Below are positions 5,196-38,230 of a DNA stretch of 41,315 nucleotides, piece by piece. Under the pieces are notes generated by a model. That model worked only from the letters and a program-made list of their open reading frames with translations, had not been told where the DNA came from and made no database searches. Positions within the stretch are counted from its first letter, which is position 1, and the number at the start of each line of letters is the position of its first letter. The position numbers were made by a program, and so were the translations under genes. This stretch comes from a virus (lineage: Duplodnaviria > Caudoviricetes), in IMG/VR virus record IMGVR_UViG_3300030433_002981, positions 1-41,315 of that record; one strand, given 5' to 3'.

Positions 5196-5651
5196 TTATG
5201 CCTCCCATTTGAGTTTCTGTTGCAGCGGATGAGTGTCCACCCTGGGCCGACTAGGTGTATTCCACCCTCGATTTGCAGTGCTTGTCTGGCCAACACACCG
5301 CCATCCTGCGCCTCGTAGACTAGCACCGCCCTCTGACTCTAGCGTGTAGGTAATCAGGCTTGTGTATCCCATAGCTCGCGCAGCTTTCCACGCTGTTGCG
5401 TAAAGCATCGAGCAAGCGTTTCTTGTGCCGTCTGTGCAGCACCGATTGACCTCAAGCGTCCAGCCATTATCAAGATGCCGGGCCACAGGCCTGCCGACTA
5501 TAACTACGCCTCGCACCACATCTTCCTCTGACACAGCTACACAGAACTTTGCGCCCGGCACTGGCTTGTGATGCCGATGATGCTCAGCCACAAAAGCATT
5601 TGCCTCATCCAAGTTGATGGGGGTGACAGCCATCTTGCTCACACTCCACAC
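5196..5651 (-). CDS. XF1762-family (Mom-like, GNAT-fold) protein
   Basis: ANAFVAEHHRHH, VGRPVAR, LEVNRCCTDGTRNACSMLY, ITYTLESEGGASLRGAGW motifs; start may be 5633. Confidence 0.75.
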   Translation of the reverse strand: MWSVSKMAVTPINLDEANAFVAEHHRHHKPVPGAKFCVAVSEEDVVRGVVIVGRPVARHLDNGWTLEVNRCCTDGTRNACSMLYATAWKAARAMGYTSLITYTLESEGGASLRGAGWRCVGQTSTANRGWNTPSRPRVDTHPLQQKLKWEA

Positions 5652-6442
5652 ATCCCATCACACTCGTCACCAAAGTCCATCACAATCTGATCCGCTGCCG
5701 GGTCAGCCAGGTCTGCTTCATCAAGCGGCACAAGTGATCGGTGTATGTAGATCTTGCTTGTTGTGCCACGAAAGTCATCGCGTATGTGTTTGTCCACAGC
5801 AACCGCTTGCTCCCATGACTTGGGATCATTGGCCTTCATCTCACGCCATGTTTTGTTGTCATGGTAGGGGCAGAATGTGCACGCGCTTTTGCGCGGCAGT
5901 TCGTTGTATCCGTTGTCACGCATCCAGCGCAGGCAATGCCACCGTGACATATGCCTTTCAATCAAGGGCCATCGGTTGTTGCACCATTTCTCTGGCGCGT
6001 CTTTCATCCGCTGTATCTCATCGGTGCTGATACCTATCCACTGCTCGACTGTGTCTGCCGGGATACGCTGGCGCGGTTTGTATCCTGCCAGTTCGCGTAG
6101 CTTGCGTTGGATCGGCGTGATCTTGTAGTCGCGGGTACACTGACGCATGAGTATGCCTTCGCCGACCCCGCTTGGTGATGCAGTGAAGAACGGCGGTGAT
6201 GCGCTACGGTCCTCTGGGTTCATGATGTCATCGAGCAGACTGCCTCGCGTCACACGCAGCACAGGGAACGGCAGCTGACTTTCTAGCCAGTCAAGCCATT
6301 CGTAGATGTGATCAGGTTCTGATTGTGTGTCTGCAAAGATCGCATAATCAGGCATGGGCGTGATCTCACCCTTCGCTGCCATCAATGCCATCACGCTCGA
6401 CTGTACACCTGCGCCCAAGCTAATTACTGTGAGCTTGCTCAT
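5639..6442 (-). CDS. PAPS-reductase-like PP-loop nucleotide-binding protein with Cys clusters
   Basis: N-terminal ISLGAGVQSS, FADT, RQCTRDYKI, IGISTDE, KSACTFCPY and terminal ECDGMCGV. Confidence 0.75.
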   Translation of the reverse strand: MSKLTVISLGAGVQSSVMALMAAKGEITPMPDYAIFADTQSEPDHIYEWLDWLESQLPFPVLRVTRGSLLDDIMNPEDRSASPPFFTASPSGVGEGILMRQCTRDYKITPIQRKLRELAGYKPRQRIPADTVEQWIGISTDEIQRMKDAPEKWCNNRWPLIERHMSRWHCLRWMRDNGYNELPRKSACTFCPYHDNKTWREMKANDPKSWEQAVAVDKHIRDDFRGTTSKIYIHRSLVPLDEADLADPAADQIVMDFGDECDGMCGV

Positions 6443-10108: not shown

Positions 10109-10594
10109 ATGGGTCTATTAGATCAAGGGATCGATGTCAGCAACATTCAAGTTGGCGGCACCGACAACACACCGTTCCCTGAAGGGGATTACACACTGGC
10201 TGCGGCGATGTACGAAGAGACAACGTCAAAGGCTGGCAACGAGATGATCAAGATCGAGTTTAACGTTGTCGGTCCTACGCATGCTGGTCGTAAGGTATGG
10301 GATTACTTCGTGCTGAATCAGCAGGTTGGTCTGTCCCGACTGAAGTCTTTCATCGGATCGACTGGCCAGGACGCATCGCACACTCTGAACACAGAGATGC
10401 TGCGAGCCGCGATGGGCAAGCAGTTTACTGCATCGATTAAGGTGGAGGCAGGCACGGGCCAGTATGCAGATAGCAACAAGATTGCCACCTATAAGAACGG
10501 CGCGGGTGCGCCACAACCACACGCTCAGACTGATCAGCCACAACAGGCACCGGCACAACCTGCCCCTGGCCTGAACACGGCAAGCTGGTCGTAG
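10109..10594 (+). CDS. DUF669-like single-stranded DNA-binding protein
   Basis: PEGDY...SKAGNEMIKIEF...GRKVWDYF pattern with a Q/P-rich tail ending in W; ATG at 10109. Confidence 0.8.
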   Translation: MGLLDQGIDVSNIQVGGTDNTPFPEGDYTLAAAMYEETTSKAGNEMIKIEFNVVGPTHAGRKVWDYFVLNQQVGLSRLKSFIGSTGQDASHTLNTEMLRAAMGKQFTASIKVEAGTGQYADSNKIATYKNGAGAPQPHAQTDQPQQAPAQPAPGLNTASWS

Positions 10595-10597
10595 CGA

Positions 10598-10690
10598 GTG
10601 CAGATAGATGACGATACGAAGAAGGGCATCATCATGGGCGTGTGCATCGCTGCATCGGTCTACGCTGCTGCCTTTCTTCTATCGTTGTGA
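10598..10690 (+). CDS. Putative 30-aa single-pass membrane peptide
   Basis: MQIDDDTKKGIIMGVCIAASVYAAAFLLSL; GTG start 3 nt after the SSB stop, no clear RBS. Confidence 0.4.
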   Translation: MQIDDDTKKGIIMGVCIAASVYAAAFLLSL

Positions 10691-10696
10691 TGAATT

Positions 10697-10846
10697 TGGC
10701 GGGGCATATCAGTCGGGTGAGTGGTGGCGTCCGACTGCTCCCAGCAAGGCTCCTACTGGCCTGCTTTAAAGAACAGATGAGATGAAGTGCGCTCCCGCCA
10801 CCCTTTCGAGGGGGGAATAGAAGGCGCCAATCTCATCAACCACCAC
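10697..10846 (+). ncRNA. Putative structured RNA (C4/CI-like antisense or leader element) with a downstream bipartite complementary site
   Basis: Closing stem TGGCGGG(10697-703)/CCCGCCA(10794-800); 10-bp hairpin 10710-737; hairpin 10743-765; loops GTGGTGG and GATGAGAT complementary to CCACCAC (10840-846) and ATCTCATC (10830-837). Confidence 0.55.
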
Positions 10847-10874
10847 ACTAACTATCATTACAAAAGGGATACTT

Positions 10875-11213
10875 ATGAACACCGAAACAAAACAAGAACT
10901 GCGCCAACAGATCGAAAGCCTGGAGAGCAGGATAGTTGAGTTGCAGGAGCAAAATCATCTGCGCCGTCCTAACACAATCGTCCTCACAAACGAGGAGGTT
11001 GCTCAGATCCTAGACCTGATTGGTAGAGCCAAAAGGGACGTTGGGGATGACATACATGAGCATGAAGTAGCTGACGATCTGAGCAGTAGTGCACAGATTG
11101 CTCTGTATCAACACGAATGTTCGTTGGAGTTGTTGTGCAAAACGATCACGAATCAGTGTGAATCTGAGTTTGCATTTAGAACTGAAACGCAGAAAGTTGA
11201 AGTAAGGATTTAG
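10875..11213 (+). CDS. Hypothetical coiled-coil protein immediately upstream of tas
   Basis: 112 aa, AAGGGA RBS, N-terminal heptad repeat. Confidence 0.75.
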   Translation: MNTETKQELRQQIESLESRIVELQEQNHLRRPNTIVLTNEEVAQILDLIGRAKRDVGDDIHEHEVADDLSSSAQIALYQHECSLELLCKTITNQCESEFAFRTETQKVEVRI

Positions 11214-11222
11214 GAGAACAAG

Positions 11223-12092
11223 GTGAAAGATCTATCAGTACAAAATGCGATGCTCAAGGCATCAGTGAACGGCTTCTACAGCATGCAGAAGACACGCATT
11301 CGGATCGGCAACAACATCGTTGCCAACTTCAAGATCAAGATCGGGCAGGAGCCTGGCAAGCCTGAAGAAACCTTGGATGCAGATGCAAAGATGCTGCTAT
11401 CTAACCTTCGTGTCAGCTACAAAAAGATCACCGATGGTGTTGCTGGCATGAACCCTCGCAAGTTCAAGGAAGATGGTTTGATCAGTGAGTACAGCGAGTT
11501 CTCTTTGGTCAAGCAGTACTTCGATCTGGTCGAGGCTGAAGAGAATGCGCTCAAGCAGATTACCTACAGCGTCAAGCAGTTCCCCATCTATCAAGCATTC
11601 CTAGAGGATGTGAAGGGTGTGGGCCCAACCATGGCTGCGGTGATCATCTCAGGCTTTGATATTCACAAGGCGCAATATGCGTCTTCTTTGTGGGCGTATG
11701 CCGGGCTTGATGTGGTTGGCGACAAGGGCAGGTCTAGGATCAAAGAGCACTTGGTTGATCAGACTTACATCGATGCTGAAGGTAAAGAGCAGACCAAGAA
11801 AGGTATCTCGTTCAATCCGTTCATGAAAACGAAGCTGATCGGCGTGCTTGGCTCGTCGTTTGTAAAGACCAACGGTAAGTACCGTGAGATCTACGACAAC
11901 TACAAGCATCGTATCACCCACATGCCTGCTCATGCTGAGAAGACCAAGGGGCACCTCAACAACATGGCGATACGCTACACGGTGAAGCGGTTCCTTGTGG
12001 ACTTGTACACCGCATGGCGCACGCTAGAGGGACTGCCGGTTGCGGATGAGTATTCCAAAGGCAAGCTTGGGATCAATCACAAGGTTGCTTGA
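11223..12092 (+). CDS. tasA: TIGR-associated (Tas) Nop-domain RNA-binding protein, nuclease-lacking (TasA-like); IS110 C-terminal domain homolog
   Basis: Coiled coil (YSMQKTRIRIGNNI) then LEDVKGVGPTMAAVII...SSLWAYAGL...FNPFMKT...HLNNMAIRYTVKRFL, the IS110/Nop fold; no N-terminal DEDD RuvC, no HNH, no IS110 'SG' serine loop; the stop codon abuts a 36-nt dual-repeat array; AGGAG RBS. Confidence 0.85.
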   Translation: MKDLSVQNAMLKASVNGFYSMQKTRIRIGNNIVANFKIKIGQEPGKPEETLDADAKMLLSNLRVSYKKITDGVAGMNPRKFKEDGLISEYSEFSLVKQYFDLVEAEENALKQITYSVKQFPIYQAFLEDVKGVGPTMAAVIISGFDIHKAQYASSLWAYAGLDVVGDKGRSRIKEHLVDQTYIDAEGKEQTKKGISFNPFMKTKLIGVLGSSFVKTNGKYREIYDNYKHRITHMPAHAEKTKGHLNNMAIRYTVKRFLVDLYTAWRTLEGLPVADEYSKGKLGINHKVA

Positions 12093-12816
12093 GCCATACC
12101 GTCTGAGAAAACCAAGATCAGTAAGCGAGCCAGACGAATGAAGAAACCCAAGGTGCAAGAGCGAGCCAAGTAATTTTAGAAAACCAGTGGCAGAAAGCGA
12201 GCCAAGCGCAGTGAGAAAACCATTAATACAGAGCGAGCCATTTCAGCGAAGACAACCAGCGAAGTCGAGCGAGCCAGAGATTTTGAGAAAATCAGCTCTC
12301 CGGAGCGAGCCAAGGATTTGTAGAAAACCAATCGAAAAAAGCGAGCCAGAGCGCGGGAGAAAACCATTTGTCGAGAGCGAGCCATTCGAATTTAGAAAAC
12401 CACCTAGATAAAGCGAGCCATAGACGCGAAGAAAACCAGGCTTACGAAGCGAGCCAGGAGTTTGTAGAAAACCATCGAAATGAAGCGAGCCAATAAGAGC
12501 AAGAAAACCAACCAAGTGGAGCGAGCCAGAGTTATAGAGAAAACCAGAGCCGAAAAGCGAGCCAGAAGGACATAGCAACCCGTCTTTACGAAGCGAGCCA
12601 CAGCGTAAAAGAAAACCAGTGACTAAGAGCGAGCCAAGTTGAAAGAGAAAACCTCAAGTCGTAAGCGAGCCATATCAGAAGAGAGAACCAAGAACCAAAA
12701 GCGCGTCATTATAGTAGAGCGGCCCAGGTCGAGTAAGCGAGCCAAGGATTTGTAGAAAACCAATCGAAAAAAGCGAGCCAATAGGGTGGAGACCCCCAAA
12801 AGGACATAGCGAATCA
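12088..12816 (+). repeat. TIGR array: 20 units of 36 nt (edge repeat AGCGAGCCA, 9-nt spacer A, loop repeat AGAAAACCA, 9-nt spacer B)
   Basis: Exact 36-nt period without indels from 12088 to the terminal edge repeat at 12808-12816; 18 of 21 edge repeats and 12 of 20 loop repeats are perfect; spacers vary except unit 7 = unit 19. Confidence 0.92.
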
Positions 12817-12827
12817 AACAAACAAGA

Positions 12828-13109
12828 GTGAAAGTTATGAAAGATGACTTTGAAATGGAAATGGAAGGCGGCAGTGAGGATCACGAGTACGCCATGGACT
12901 TGATCAGAAACTTGGTGAAGGTCAGCAAAGAAGAGCTAGACCCACGCATTCTGTTTGAAGTCATGATGGTCTATTCGCTGGGTTGGAACATGGCCCACGG
13001 CGACCATGACCTTATGACCAAGCTATTGCCAAATGTCTTGGACAGCATCAATGATGGTTCTTATGCCGATGTGGCAGAAATTATGGAGGAAGAAAGGATA
13101 TGTCACTAG
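12828..13109 (+). CDS. Hypothetical acidic protein
   Basis: 93-aa ORF directly after the array (start 12828 or 12837). Confidence 0.7.
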   Translation: MKVMKDDFEMEMEGGSEDHEYAMDLIRNLVKVSKEELDPRILFEVMMVYSLGWNMAHGDHDLMTKLLPNVLDSINDGSYADVAEIMEEERICH

Positions 13110-13258
13110 CAACAGAAGACTCATCTAAGTTCGCAGAACGTAAACGTGCCGTGCTGCGATGCATCTACAAGTCACCAGAAGACAGCTGGGCCAAGAACTA
13201 TTGGCGCAATACCTATCGAAAACTCATGGAAGAACGAAGAAAGCGCATATGGAACTAA
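13100..13258 (+). CDS. Small basic hypothetical protein (52 aa, not in the ORF track)
   Basis: MSLATEDSSKFAERKRAVLRCIYKSPEDSWAKNYWRNTYRKLMEERRKRIWN; AAGGA RBS; overlaps both neighbours. Confidence 0.6.
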   Translation: MSLATEDSSKFAERKRAVLRCIYKSPEDSWAKNYWRNTYRKLMEERRKRIWN

Positions 13259-14922
13259 GGTACTATCAGCGCGAGGCCGTTGATGCAGCGGTCCACTGGT
13301 TCAACACCCAGGACACGCATCCGCTCATCGTTCTACCGACAGGGGCTGGCAAGACAGTTGTCTTCGCCACACTGATCAAGGAGATCTTTGAGCGGGAGCC
13401 AGACTGCAGGATTCTGATCCTAGCTCACCGGCAAGAACTGGTCAGCCAGGCAGAAGATAAACTCAAGAAAGTATGGCCATGTGCGCCGTCAGGCATCCTG
13501 GCTGCGGGTTTGAATCAATACGAAGTCGATGGGCGTATCGTCATTGCCAGCCGAGATACCTTGGCTACGCCGACTAGACTCAACACCGTTGGCGACTTTG
13601 ACTATATCATCGTGGACGAGGCGCATCATGTTGCGCCAGATCCCAAGACCCGGTATCGCAAGATCTTTGATCACTTTGAATCATCTATCTGGAGGACGCC
13701 GCGCATACTGGGTGTGACCGCTACACCCTATCGTATGGGCCAGGGCTTCATATACGGCCTTGAGGAGCACTTCTTTTCAGGGGTTGCCTACCGTATAGGC
13801 ATACCTGAAATGATCCAACAGGGCTTCCTGTGCCGTCTGTCGGCCTTCAAGGTAAACGATGAGGCTGTGATCGATGCATCAACTGCGCGGGTCAAGTTCA
13901 AGGGCGGCGACTATCGCGAGTCGGACATCGAGAAGCTGGCCATGGAAGATCAAACCATGCTGGCCATCATCGATGATTGGGTAGAGAAGGCATACACCAA
14001 AGGCCGACTGAGCACAGTGTTCTTTTGTATCACGGTGGCTCATGCAGAAAAGATGTGCATGTATCTCAGGCGAGCAGGCATAGAGGCTGCAGTTGTGACC
14101 GGCGAGACTCCAAAGAGAGAACGCGAAGATATCTTGGAGCGTTTTGAAGACGGCCAGATCAACGCGCTGTGCAACGTTGCCGTGCTGACAGAGGGTTGGG
14201 ATGCGCCACGCACAGACTGTATCGCGCTGCTGCGTCCCACCAAGTCGCTAGGCTTGTACGTTCAGATTTGTGGACGAGGCATGCGCACCTGGGGTGACAA
14301 GAAAGACTGCATGCTTCTGGACTACGGCGAAAACATGGATAGGCATGGCTGCATAGACACTGCTCGTCCATCGATCCCAAGCAAAGAAGACAAAGAGAAA
14401 GAACAAGAAACCAAGATATGGATATGTGACTCGTGCTTGGGCGTCAACGATTCAGATCGTGACACATGCATTGAGTGCGGTGCCTTGAAGCCAGCGCCTA
14501 TCGAACAGCCAAAGCTATTTGAGCAAGACAAGGATGCGGCATCAACACGCATGGCTGCGAGCGGCTCTGTTTTATCTGATGAGCTTCAAGATCCCGTGCA
14601 GGTGCATGAGCGCATCAAGAACGTAGAGTGGGTTTCAGCTGAGTTAAAAACATCGAAGAATGGCAACGACTATCTCAATGTTATGTTTTTAAGTCCCGGC
14701 GACTATTGGCCACAAAACATGCCAATCATGATCGGCATGAAAGGTAAAGCTGGCACGATGGCAGAGAAAAAGTGGCGATCACTAACCAACGGCTTCCCGT
14801 GCCCAACTAACATTAATCACGCTGTTGATCTGGTGAAACATGTAAAGGTGATGAGCCACATCAAACAAATCACTGTAAGAAAAGAAGGAAGATACTGGAA
14901 TGTCGTTAGCGTCCATTTTTGA
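13249..14922 (+). CDS. Superfamily 2 DEAH helicase (RadD/YejH-like) with Zn finger
   Basis: LRYYQ Q-motif, PTGAGKT, DEAHH, TATP, LTEGWD, QICGRGMR, CxxC...CxxC; likely start MELRYYQ at 13249. Confidence 0.9.
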   Translation: MELRYYQREAVDAAVHWFNTQDTHPLIVLPTGAGKTVVFATLIKEIFEREPDCRILILAHRQELVSQAEDKLKKVWPCAPSGILAAGLNQYEVDGRIVIASRDTLATPTRLNTVGDFDYIIVDEAHHVAPDPKTRYRKIFDHFESSIWRTPRILGVTATPYRMGQGFIYGLEEHFFSGVAYRIGIPEMIQQGFLCRLSAFKVNDEAVIDASTARVKFKGGDYRESDIEKLAMEDQTMLAIIDDWVEKAYTKGRLSTVFFCITVAHAEKMCMYLRRAGIEAAVVTGETPKREREDILERFEDGQINALCNVAVLTEGWDAPRTDCIALLRPTKSLGLYVQICGRGMRTWGDKKDCMLLDYGENMDRHGCIDTARPSIPSKEDKEKEQETKIWICDSCLGVNDSDRDTCIECGALKPAPIEQPKLFEQDKDAASTRMAASGSVLSDELQDPVQVHERIKNVEWVSAELKTSKNGNDYLNVMFLSPGDYWPQNMPIMIGMKGKAGTMAEKKWRSLTNGFPCPTNINHAVDLVKHVKVMSHIKQITVRKEGRYWNVVSVHF

Positions 14923-15991
14923 TCGGATCGATGAGCAACTAGCGGAGAAAGAAAACCGCTTTCGTGGCCATCTTGGGTTCAGCGGCATTGGTGATGACGA
15001 TGAATACAAACTGTGGATGGGCTTCCGCTGGTGCTTACCGGCAAGCTTCAGCGGTAGGATGCTGCGGCTGTTTGATCTAGGCAACCGCATTGAGGACCAG
15101 GTGGTCGAGAACATTCGTAACACCGATGTTATCTCCATCGCCTCACATGACAAGGACGGCAACCAGTTTCGTGCATCGTTCTTTGGCGGGCACTTCGCAG
15201 GCTCTTGTGACGGCCTCCTCAAGGGCGTTCTGCCACCCCCTAGCGAAGAGGTGATCTTGCTGCTGGAAGTCAAGAGCGCCAACGACAAGCGGTTCAAAGA
15301 GCTCGTAAAGCTTGAAAGCTACGAAGCCTGGAGTGAAACCTATCGATGGCAGATCCATGCTTACATGGGTGCGCTTGGCCTGAACAAGTGCATGGTAGTT
15401 GTAGTCAACAAGAACGACAGCAGTGTGTACACAGAGATCATCGACTTCAATACACAGGTTTGGGAAAAGGCGCAAGCCAAGGCGCAGCGTATCATCTGCA
15501 GTGACGCACCTGACAAGAGCACGCGCATGTCAGAAAAAGACTGGCGCATGAAGAACGAGTCGGAGTTGTATCGCAACATCTACTTTGGTCGCCGCCTGCC
15601 TGAATCGGTCAACTGCAGGAACTGCAAGAACGTGAAGCCACTGACTGAATCAAACGGTGCCGTTTGGTACTGCTCACGAAGCAACAGAGCCATACCTCTT
15701 GAAGAGCAGAAACTGGGCTGCAAGGACCACCTGTGGATACCAGAGCTTGTGAATGCAAACCATCTGCCGGGCAAAAGCACAGAGGATTCTGTGGCTTATC
15801 AGGTTGGGATCATGGAGTTCTACAACTCAACGTCTGAAGTGACAGGTGAGTATCACTACAGCAGCGTAGAGATGCGTGAACTATCTAAGGCAGACTTTGA
15901 AGCGGGCTTAATGATGACCGGCGAGAGCGTGAGGCGTGAGTTTCCTGGCAGCTATCTTGAGAATGTTGACGAGCGCAAGATGCCGTTTTAG
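14900..15991 (+). CDS. Cas4-like / PD-(D/E)XK phage exonuclease
   Basis: HLGFSGIG, G...E, GSCDG, LLEVKS, QIHAYM, C-terminal NCRNC. Confidence 0.8.
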   Translation: MSLASIFDRIDEQLAEKENRFRGHLGFSGIGDDDEYKLWMGFRWCLPASFSGRMLRLFDLGNRIEDQVVENIRNTDVISIASHDKDGNQFRASFFGGHFAGSCDGLLKGVLPPPSEEVILLLEVKSANDKRFKELVKLESYEAWSETYRWQIHAYMGALGLNKCMVVVVNKNDSSVYTEIIDFNTQVWEKAQAKAQRIICSDAPDKSTRMSEKDWRMKNESELYRNIYFGRRLPESVNCRNCKNVKPLTESNGAVWYCSRSNRAIPLEEQKLGCKDHLWIPELVNANHLPGKSTEDSVAYQVGIMEFYNSTSEVTGEYHYSSVEMRELSKADFEAGLMMTGESVRREFPGSYLENVDERKMPF

Positions 15992-34083: not shown

Positions 34084-34221
34084 CTATCTTCTCCGACCTC
34101 TTGTCTTTTGCTTTGGCTTCTTCATCGAAGCAACATGTTTCTTCAAGACTGCTGCTTGTTTTTTATGGGCCTTAGATGCTTTCTCTAAGCTTTTAACTAT
34201 TTTTTTAACTTTGCGCACCAT
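34084..34221 (-). CDS. 45-aa Lys-rich peptide (not in the ORF track)
   Basis: MVRKVKKIVKSLEKASKAHKKQAAVLKKHVASMKKPKQKTRGRRR; exactly fills the gap, with TGATG coupling upstream and an abutting start downstream. Confidence 0.6.
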   Translation of the reverse strand: MVRKVKKIVKSLEKASKAHKKQAAVLKKHVASMKKPKQKTRGRRR

Positions 34222-34856
34222 CAAGCAACCTCTTCCCAGTTTGGAGTTTGACTGTCTGTTACATCAGTCCAACTCGGTGTTTGACTATCGTTAACAGCAC
34301 TCCAGCTTGGCGTTTGACTATCTGTTACAGAAGCCCAACTTGGTGTTTGACTGTCCGTGATTGCTGTCCAGTTTGGGTCTTGTCCGTCGTTTATAATACC
34401 GTAAACGTTGAAATATCCTATCGCACCCGTTGACGTAACGCCCGCAGGAGTTGCGTTAGCTGTTCCCGATACTGACGCAGATCCAATCTCTCCGTCACCC
34501 TGCACGCCAGTGACTGATGCATTAGCTGTGCCCGTGATCGCAACCGAACCAGCCGCTCCAGTGCCTGAAACGCCAGATACACTAACATTCGCATCTGCCG
34601 ATACAGTAACCGCTCCGACAGATCCAGTTCCTGCCACGCCTGCGACAGATACATCGACACCCGCCCCTTGGACGATTGTGACCGACCCGATTGACCCTGT
34701 GCCAGAAACGCCTGTGACAACGGCATCTGTGCTAAGGATGACCGTGACTGACCCAACAGAACCTGTTGCAGATACGCCACTAACTTCAATAGGCGCTTCT
34801 TCGCCCCAAGCGCCCTCACCCCAAGTGCCTCTGCCCCAACCCGTAACATTTGCCAT
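34221..34856 (-). CDS. Gly/Ser/Val-rich virion protein with C-terminal DSQTPSW repeats
   Basis: WGxGxWG N-terminus, VTGVSGTGSxGSV repeats, five 11-aa C-terminal repeats. Confidence 0.7.
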   Translation of the reverse strand: MANVTGWGRGTWGEGAWGEEAPIEVSGVSATGSVGSVTVILSTDAVVTGVSGTGSIGSVTIVQGAGVDVSVAGVAGTGSVGAVTVSADANVSVSGVSGTGAAGSVAITGTANASVTGVQGDGEIGSASVSGTANATPAGVTSTGAIGYFNVYGIINDGQDPNWTAITDSQTPSWASVTDSQTPSWSAVNDSQTPSWTDVTDSQTPNWEEVA

Positions 34857-37650: not shown

Positions 37651-38160
37651 TTACTGGTCAGCAAAAGCAGGCGCAGTAGTGCTCGTTACATTTCCAAAGA
37701 TCTGATAGTTAGTTGTATCTATGCCGATAATGGTTATTTCAAACCCAGCAGGAACGTTCAGCTGTATGCTGCTGTTGGAATTTCCATCAGAGAATACTGA
37801 GCTAACTTCGTTGCCGTCTGTATCTAAGAAAGTAACACCACCAATATAAAAATTAGTGTTGCCGGGAGTAACAATAATCGCGTCCGTAGCATCAGCAGCG
37901 CCACCAGCGTATACAAACTTGAAAACAGATCCAGCAACAGGAGCAGGAAGCGTATAAGTATTATCTTGGCCACCGTCTGGAACAAGAAGAATCCTTCCAC
38001 TGTGAGTTGCGTTGGTTAGGGTTACGTTGCCGTCTGAGAGGCTAACTGGAGCGCCACCGTAAGTTGTGATCTCGGTAATCGCACCGCTAGTTGCGTCTTT
38101 GCTGATGGACTTAAATCCATTCTCTGATCGGACTGGACCCGAAAAAGTCGTATTAGCCAT
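37651..38160 (-). CDS. Virion structural / head-fibre protein (MANTTFSGPVRS N-terminus)
   Basis: AGGAG RBS; first gene after the capsid terminator. Confidence 0.7.
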   Translation of the reverse strand: MANTTFSGPVRSENGFKSISKDATSGAITEITTYGGAPVSLSDGNVTLTNATHSGRILLVPDGGQDNTYTLPAPVAGSVFKFVYAGGAADATDAIIVTPGNTNFYIGGVTFLDTDGNEVSSVFSDGNSNSSIQLNVPAGFEITIIGIDTTNYQIFGNVTSTTAPAFADQ

Positions 38161-38230
38161 TGTTATCTCCTGTCGTGGCTAGTGTCAGGCACGGTATGCG
38201 CCTGTCAGGGATAGATTGTTTATACAGCAC

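What the first reader, a model, noticed from the sequence alone, without database searches (positions are those of the whole stretch)
12088..12816. Variant guide grammar: both repeats read AG...CCA and spacer position 9 is never C
Seen: all 40 spacers are followed by AG, and nearly all are preceded by CCA (exceptions TCA, CCG, CCT), even where the repeat centre has diverged (AGCGGCCCA, AGACCCCCA, AGCGCGTCA). The last base is never C in 40 of 40 spacers, and it is a purine in 19 of 20 B spacers. As I recall, characterised tigRNAs have CCA and UG box motifs, so AG would be a variant box D with possibly co-evolved protein contacts. The position-9 bias suggests a structural or acquisition constraint at the A/B junction.
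Basis: partly seen in the sequence, partly recalled or inferred. Interest (0 to 1): 0.7.

Follow-up and report, generated by a model that had tools for sequence, protein, structure and literature searches.

The report
Phage TIGR array, common AG grammar
A phage carries a known RNA-guided DNA-binding system (TIGR-TasA) whose 'AG' guide motif is a common, already published form; the last letter of each guide half avoids C in related arrays of both motif types, and one protein residue likely helps decide between the AG and UG forms.

Summary
In detail: 40 of 40 spacers are followed by AG, none ends in C, and 19 of 20 B spacers end in a purine. The 'variant grammar' reading fails. The founding Salicola phage TasH array has the same AGCGAGCCA edge, and the founding FpTasA array also uses AG. 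AG is the box D of 81 of 118 arrays found with that base left free. The 289-aa ORF upstream is a TasA of a cluster already in Faure 2025 Table S1.

The position-9 bias is real but family-wide: C is 4.5% in AG and 6.8% in UG arrays, against about 21% elsewhere. Many clades fix position 9, as SpTasH does (8-bp pairing). In the others A9 and B9 are complementary in excess, which suggests a shared central base pair; this scan noted that before on other DNA.

One residue (Ala150 here, Phe199 in TaTasR) tracks AG versus UG in 87 of 88 families and in 38 of 44 independent ones, but only two phylogenetically independent pairs support it. No natural target was found. Verdict: new member of a known kind.

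The parts
11223..12092 (+). tasA gene, 289 aa, Nop-domain protein with no nuclease domain
   Evidence: phmmer to TaTasR 9MTY E 1.5e-13 and SpTasH E 4.9e-7; Foldseek top 10 rows are all TasH/TasR structures; near-identical proteins in Faure 2025 Table S1, node3727; Pfam shows no nuclease family
11670..11672 (+). Ala150 codon, in the DIHKA loop; the column that tracks AG versus UG box D (Phe199 in TaTasR, Ala166 in SpTasH)
   Evidence: pairwise alignments
12051..12080 (+). C-terminal Tyr277 ... His286, candidate RNA-processing dyad (His two residues later than in SpTasH Y289/H296)
   Evidence: both invariant in 25 of 25 homologues; alignment; dyad described in PMC13421893
12091..12096 (+). 5'-truncated first edge repeat (GAGCCA), overlapping the tasA stop codon
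   Evidence: sequence
12097..12816 (+). dual-repeat TIGR array, 20 units of 36 nt: spacer A, loop AGAAAACCA, spacer B, edge AGCGAGCCA
12313..12348 (+). unit 7, whose spacer pair is repeated exactly in unit 19 (12745-12780)
12808..12816 (+). last, degenerate edge repeat (AGCGAATCA)

Best explanation
This is an ordinary dual-repeat TIGR-TasA locus of a phage: the array likely yields 36-nt two-part guide RNAs that would steer a nuclease-free TasA dimer to DNA, AG is a common published box D, and the ninth spacer base is likely a hinge nucleotide that prefers a purine rather than a free guide letter. Steps. (1) Shown: architecture, protein family, and that AG is common. (2) From published work on relatives: cutting inside the edge repeat, dimer binding, and repression by binding. 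(3) Shown at sequence level: G of box D can pair with the first base of box C in all 40 repeats, while the A has no Watson-Crick partner. Inferred: the A is read by protein, and a small residue at position 150 makes room for it where Phe or Thr goes with U. (4) Shown: position 9 is C-poor and purine-rich in both AG and UG arrays, is fixed in whole clades, and A9/B9 are complementary in excess where it varies. Inferred: pairing at position 9 is optional (8 bp in SpTasH), a purine next to box D is favoured for stacking, and in a share of guides both ninth bases face one central base pair of a 17-bp site. In this clade a ninth base that would be a pyrimidine, above all C, is often replaced by A.
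For:: SpTIGR has the same edge repeat and position 9 is A 14, G 2, T 1, C 0 in 17 slots; Faure counts its spacers as 16 nt in total. SpTasH heteroduplexes are 8 bp and its test target has 16 positions. (Tas-linked arrays): C at position 9 is 74 of 1650 in AG and 38 of 556 in UG arrays; below background in 46 of 51 and 25 of 26 families; at least 75% one base in 22 of 51 and 9 of 26 families. (independent collections): 54 of 1126 and 23 of 302. Complementary A9/B9: 166 vs 122.7 +/- 7.2 of 1001 AG units and 126 vs 80.1 +/- 6.1 of 366 TG units, with no excess across neighbouring units (67 vs 75; 41 vs 39.5); replicated as 64 vs 43.7 and 74 vs 48.7; 111 vs 83.3 of 317 in this clade. Residue: AG goes with A 47, C 7, S 3 and TG with F 24, T 6, C 1; independent set AG small 28 of 30, TG Phe 10 of 14, Fisher p 2e-5. 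The neighbouring TaTasR Arg198 is reported to hold the box-D uracil. TasR tolerates 1-2 bp gaps between half-sites.
Against: No natural target was found, so the 17-bp geometry is not shown for this clade: 0 of 317 units match exactly with a 1-bp gap in 3.68 Mb of related phage DNA. One-mismatch hits at that gap are raised (16 vs 7.7 +/- 2.9), but the centre base fits A9 or B9 in only 4 of 16 (control 3.6), and an unexpected 4-bp gap is raised too. Only 35% of units in this clade are complementary. Position 9 changes no faster than other positions among related units (11 of 130 differences), which does not fit a freely drifting unpaired base. TaTasR and PlTasA pair all 9 bases in their structures. 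The residue rule has exceptions (4 of 14 new TG arrays carry A or S, 1 AG array F, 1 H) and only 2 independent pairs on well-supported branches. Expression and processing were not shown (contigs only).
Confidence: 0.6

Rival explanations
1. Acquisition footprint: guides come from contiguous 18-bp DNA pieces split at the middle, and the unknown acquisition step prefers purine|pyrimidine or AA/TT centres and avoids pyrimidine|purine steps. Position 9 is then a fully paired guide base.
For: Read as an 18-bp site, both ninth bases are pyrimidines in only 4 of 317 units of this clade, against about 16 expected from the marginals (counts, hand calculation). Position 9 is not more variable than other positions. 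TaTasR and PlTasA pair 9 + 9.
Against: It does not explain clades in which position 9 is one fixed base (31 of 77 families) or the 8-bp pairing of SpTasH. G:C complementary pairs are also in excess (42 vs 30.9 and 42 vs 25.2), whereas GG/CC steps are not enriched inside spacers. No exact contiguous target above chance.
Confidence: 0.2
2. A9 and B9 pair with each other inside the figure-eight guide RNA (Watson-Crick or purine-purine), which stabilises the unloaded guide; the target plays no part in the covariation.
For: Complementary excess within units only; pyrimidine-pyrimidine pairs are nearly absent in this clade.
Against: None of the structure descriptions I read mentions such a pair, and a wedge loop is described as separating the two spacers. 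I could not inspect coordinates.
Confidence: 0.1
3. AG-specific avoidance of a false box C: a C before the A of box D makes an NCA that could be bound out of register.
For: C is slightly rarer in AG than in UG arrays (4.5% vs 6.8%, pooled Fisher p 0.03, not corrected for kinship). CC at positions 8-9 is 18 against about 24 expected.
Against: UG arrays, which cannot form NCA this way, are depleted almost as much (25 of 26 families). T is depleted too. C after A, G or T is as rare as after C.
Confidence: 0.05
4. Chance or base composition of this one array.
For: Spacers are C-poor (15%); the corrected p in the window is only 0.018.
Against: Replicated in two independent sets of arrays. CAG is not depleted in the window as a whole (1654 vs AAG 1800, GAG 1166, TAG 941).
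Confidence: 0.02

Closest known systems
FpTIGR-TasA of Flavonifractor plautii (Faure et al. 2025, PMC12045711)
   Same: Solo Nop TasA with a downstream dual-repeat array, 9-nt spacers and AG box D. Read by eye from Table S1, its protein shares the YAGLDV, YID.DGKEQ.KK and NPF.KTKL.GVLG motifs and has Lys-Ala at the 149-150 equivalent.
   Different: Its repeats differ (edge AGTGTACCN, loop AGTAACCCN, box C third base variable). C occurs at position 9 in about 2 of 20 spacers counted by eye in the visible part of the cell.
SpTIGR-TasH of Salicola phage CGphi29 (Faure 2025; PMC13421893; Guan 2026 preprint; PDB 9W03, 9W04)
   Same: Identical edge repeat AGCGAGCCA; loop AGACAACCA differs by one base; no C at position 9 (0 of 17); Ala at the 150 equivalent; Tyr of the processing dyad aligned.
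   Different: It has an HNH nuclease and 27% local identity. Position 9 is mostly A and counted as repeat (8-nt spacers, 16-bp target), whereas here it varies among A, G and T.
TaTIGR-TasR and ParTIGR-TasR (PDB 9MTY)
   Same: Same 36-nt unit, edge NGCGAGCCA, A-rich loop, box C CCA.
   Different: UG box D, RuvC nuclease, 9-bp heteroduplexes, Phe199 in TaTasR at the Ala150 column.
Tas cluster node3727 of Faure 2025 Table S1
   Same: Holds proteins almost identical to this one.
   Different: Listed as proteins with coordinates only in the part of the table I could read; not characterised there.

Membership tests
Dual-repeat TIGR-TasA | Adjacent gene for a Nop-domain Tas protein | tested here: met
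Dual-repeat TIGR-TasA | No N-terminal RuvC or HNH domain | tested here: met
   289 aa; the model is helical from residue 2; no nuclease family in Pfam or PHROGs
Dual-repeat TIGR-TasA | Two alternating 8-12-nt repeats with 9-nt spacers, 36-nt unit, truncated first edge | tested here: met
Dual-repeat TIGR-TasA | Box D and box C shared by edge and loop, with a C/D pair and an extra edge pair | tested here: met
   G2:C7 or G2:U7 in 40 of 40; C3:G6 in 19 of 20 edges. Which bases pair is inferred.
Dual-repeat TIGR-TasA | C-terminal Tyr/His processing dyad | tested here: inconclusive
   Tyr277 aligns with SpTasH Y289; His286 is invariant but two residues later than H296
Dual-repeat TIGR-TasA | Rho-independent terminator after the array (typical, not required) | tested here: not met
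   no + strand terminator-like site in 10500-13200; an ORF starts 12 nt after the array
Dual-repeat TIGR-TasA | Processing into 36-nt tigRNAs bound by the protein | not testable with these tools
   only assembled contigs were available
Dual-repeat TIGR-TasA | Tandem-spacer binding of both DNA strands | not testable with these tools
   no natural target found
Stem-loop TIGR | Palindromic stems in place of edge repeats | tested here: not met
   conserved 9-nt edge repeats on a fixed lattice
IS110 transposase with bridge RNA | DEDD RuvC-like catalytic domain | tested here: not met
   only a sub-threshold PF02371 hit at residues 126-165; IS621 ranks below Tas structures
CRISPR array | One 25-36-nt repeat with spacers of similar length | tested here: not met
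   two alternating 9-nt repeats; no Rfam CRISPR family

The most novel reading that the evidence does not exclude
TIGR guides follow a two-part code not found in the papers I could read. A single Nop-loop residue (small = A, Phe or Thr = U) sets the first base of box D and has switched several times, so AG and UG systems are orthogonal and interconvertible by one mutation. Position 9 is a hinge whose clade-specific mode (fixed, complementary or purine-filled) reports 16-, 17- or 18-bp targets, with this abundant phage clade reading 17-bp sites.
Probability: 0.35. Interest if true: 0.6.

Novelty: new member of a known kind. Interest (0 to 1): 0.33.

Why it matters
The headline claim is ordinary: AG is published and common. 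Two by-products could be useful. If Ala150/Phe199 sets box D specificity, orthogonal guide-protein pairs could be chosen or made for multiplexed TIGR tools. If position 9 is a hinge, searches for natural targets, named as an open problem in the Xu 2026 preprint, should use 8+1+8 and 8+8 geometries as well as 9+9, and synthetic guides should end in a purine.

Tried and rejected
Self-targeting: no 18-bp site with fewer than 3 mismatches in the window for any of 20 units, in the published geometry (both orientation labels describe the same site). Targets in all fetched loci (1936 units, 1.43 Mb): gap counts like the shuffles. Targets in related phages (317 units; 2.08 Mb, 3.68 Mb; 160 de-duplicated units): no exact match above chance; the one-mismatch excess at a 1-bp gap is matched by an excess at a 4-bp gap and the centre base does not fit, so it is not counted as support. 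Restriction-site avoidance: CAG is common in the window. AG-specific C depletion: suggested (5% vs 12%) but largely lost once non-TIGR tandem repeats were removed from the TG set by requiring a tas gene; still contain those repeats. A8/B8 adjacency (16-bp reading): correlation 0.93 with internal dinucleotide bias, but chi-square 13.5 and a control junction gave -0.83, so treated as noise. Faster drift at position 9: not seen. Expression: two RNA runs hold 0.08-0.15 of the words as contigs only; no conclusion. Promoter and terminator scan: nothing above shuffles. Yang et al. 2026 (Mol Cell) is not held.

Full report
Observation. The stretch 12091-12816 is an exact 18-nt lattice of 9-nt spacers between alternating repeats AGAAAACCA (loop) and AGCGAGCCA (edge), 20 units in all. 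With 15.3% C at positions 1-8 the chance of no C is 0.0013; the chance that some position lacks some base is 0.018. Repeat position 2 can pair with position 7 in all 40 repeats (G:C 37, G:U 3), and 3 with 6 in 19 of 20 edges.

The protein. ORF 11223-12092 (289 aa) ends on the first, truncated edge repeat. It matches TaTasR (E 1.5e-13) and SpTasH (E 4.9e-7) by sequence. Its model (mean pLDDT 76) has TasH and TasR structures as its ten best rows, and no nuclease domain is seen. Near-identical proteins stand in Table S1 of Faure 2025 under node3727. The host element is a tailed phage record of 41 kb whose major capsid protein is 70% identical to that of Pelagibacter phage HTVC023P; the host is not known.

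AG is not a new box D. The main text of Faure 2025 describes UG for TaTasR and adds that the motifs can diverge but covary between edge and loop. Its Table S1 prints four dual-repeat arrays: SpTIGR has edge AGCGAGCCA and loop AGACAACCA, FpTIGR also begins its repeats with AG, and TaTIGR and ParTIGR use TG. I confirmed SpTIGR on the phage record. Motif scans of viral contigs estimated about 560 stretches with the AG form and 121 with the TG form; the TG set includes unrelated tandem repeats. With the first base left free, 118 of 247 fetched genome and metagenome loci held a credible new array: AG 81, TG 29, CG 6, GG 2. The pattern was modelled on this edge type, so other edge types were not sampled. 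Beside homologues of this TasA, 66 of 102 loci (two overlapping sets) showed a repeat lattice, all AG; 36 showed none.

Position 9 is a family-wide rule. Among Tas-linked array families (78 AG and 40 TG; 77 and 62 families without a tas gene in the fetched DNA were dropped), C at position 9 is 74 of 1650 (4.5%) and 38 of 556 (6.8%), against 20-21% at positions 1-8. It is below background in 46 of 51 and 25 of 26 families with five or more units. The independent set gives 54 of 1126 and 23 of 302. The bias is therefore real but hardly depends on AG. In 22 of 51 AG and 9 of 26 TG families one base, mostly G, fills at least 75% of ninth positions, and this mode clusters on the Tas tree. SpTIGR is such a case (A 14, G 2, T 1 of 17). 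Faure counts 16 variable bases for it, and the Guan preprint reports 8-bp heteroduplexes for SpTasH against 9 bp for TaTasR and PlTasA. The extreme form of the bias is thus already implicit in print.

A9 and B9 covary. Within arrays, complementary A9/B9 pairs exceed permutation: 166 vs 122.7 +/- 7.2 of 1001 AG units and 126 vs 80.1 +/- 6.1 of 366 TG units, for both A:T and G:C, with no excess between neighbouring units (this set still held the unrelated TG repeats). Filtered and independent sets repeat it, and so does this clade (111 vs 83.3 +/- 5.4 of 317). In the window, all 5 distinct units with T at A9 have A at B9, against 6 of 14 others (p 0.04). In this clade the common pairs are TA 64, GA 60, AG 44, AA 43, AT 34 and GG 25. 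This fits a 17-bp site whose central pair is read by one or both halves, with A put in where a pyrimidine would stand. It also fits an 18-bp site with a biased centre. Faure states that A and B show no obvious covariation. I found the signal before reading the scan's notes; four earlier, mostly unchecked notes report the same overlap on other DNA, so it is not new to this scan, and those notes are not independent support.

Against the hinge reading. No target confirms it. No unit matches exactly at a 1-bp gap in 3.68 Mb of related phage DNA. One-mismatch hits at that gap are raised (16 vs 7.7 +/- 2.9, 1 of 60 shuffles, ten gaps tested), but the centre fits in only 4 of 16 and a 4-bp gap is raised too. 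Among related units position 9 carries 11 of 130 differences, no more than its share, 8 of them A/G.

A residue that tracks box D. One Tas per family was aligned (93 families, 5 dropped as gappy). The column of Ala150 separates AG (A 47, C 7, S 3) from TG (F 24, T 6, C 1), with 87 of 88 right in leave-one-out; the next best column reaches 85%. TG arrays nested in an AG clade carry Thr. In the independent set 73 loci had a tas gene; 23 lacked the column and 5 were seen before, leaving 45: AG with A 26, C 1, G 1, F 1, H 1; TG with F 10, A 2, S 2; one mixed TG-edge/AG-loop array with T (Fisher p 2e-5 on the 44 unmixed). The column is Phe199 in TaTasR and Ala166 in SpTasH. The Xu preprint says TaTasR Arg198 stabilises the box-D uracil, and PMC13421893 places SpTasH Lys167 near the guide ends, so the loop is in the right place. 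Against: on a tree built without these columns box D changes 8 times, but only 2 independent pairs rest on well-supported branches; both agree, and that cannot reach significance. The rule is a correlate, not a shown cause.

Mechanism. Most likely the array is transcribed with tasA and cut in each edge repeat into 36-nt guides (inferred from relatives; Tyr277 and His286 are invariant, the His offset by two). A TasA dimer would bind both strands of a 16-18-bp site and block transcription, as shown for other nuclease-free Tas proteins. The G of box D pairs with box C, the A is likely read by a pocket lined by Ala150, and position 9 is likely a purine-preferring hinge. Architecture, frequencies and covariations are shown; processing, binding, the pocket and the target length are inferred.

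What I saw of the literature. PMC12045711: outline, parts 1-3 of the text, sections 10, 24, 49, part 1 and searches of Table S1 (held cut), two rows of Table S3, part 1 of Data S1; the supplementary PDF with Figs S4, S5 and S8 could not be read and may show AG logos and position-9 bias. Preprint 10.64898/2026.09.09.750476: parts 1, 4, 5 of 7 and passages; its list of dual-repeat box motifs is missing from the held text and its supplements are closed. Preprint 10.64898/2026.08.11.744272: parts 1-3 of 5. PMC13421893: parts 2-3 of 5 and passages. Preprints 10.64898/2026.07.30.739390, 10.64898/2026.07.15.738680 and 10.64898/2026.09.22.753630: term searches only. Yang et al. 2026 (Mol Cell, SpTasH structures, one with a gapped target) was not available and may describe how the A of box D and position 9 are held. 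Searches found no statement of the residue rule or of a family-wide position-9 rule; given these gaps that is weak evidence of novelty.

Verdict. New member of a known kind; interest 0.33. The AG claim is already known. The position-9 rule is real and general. The residue correlate is the most useful testable lead.

Noticed in passing
L026:3155-3408 (Microcystis phage Mvi-JY20, PP438412.1): TIGR array beside a Tas gene with TG in the edge and CG in the loop repeats and A at position 9 in all 14 slots: box D differs between edge and loop.
   Followed up: no
L635 (Saccharibacteria genome bin): Array with TG edge and AG loop; its Tas has Thr at the Ala150 column.
   Followed up: partly
L025:2447-4850 (Ralstonia phage RSL1, NC_010811.2): The gene annotated as transposase is a TasA relative (35% identity) followed by a long, degenerate AG array.
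   Followed up: partly
window 13159-15991: A helicase and a Cas4-domain exonuclease lie just downstream of the array. They are common in phage replication modules; any role in guide acquisition is untested.
   Followed up: no
window 12565-12573 and 12799-12807: Spacer A of unit 14 and spacer B of unit 20 share 8 of 9 bases; the loops of units 14, 18 and 20 are degenerate, that of unit 18 edge-like.
   Followed up: no
L320-L398: 34 of 79 loci with a TasA homologue show no repeat lattice in the fetched DNA; some contigs are short, and degenerate arrays may have been missed.
   Followed up: no
window 38158-38210 (-): Mu-gpT-DE RNA (RF03012, 70.9 bits) just after the major capsid gene.
   Followed up: no
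window 5196-6442 (-): Mom-like DNA modification gene next to a PAPS-reductase-family gene.
   Followed up: no
window 34236-34376: 33-bp tandem repeat, about 3.4 copies, overlapping ORF 34221-34856.
   Followed up: no
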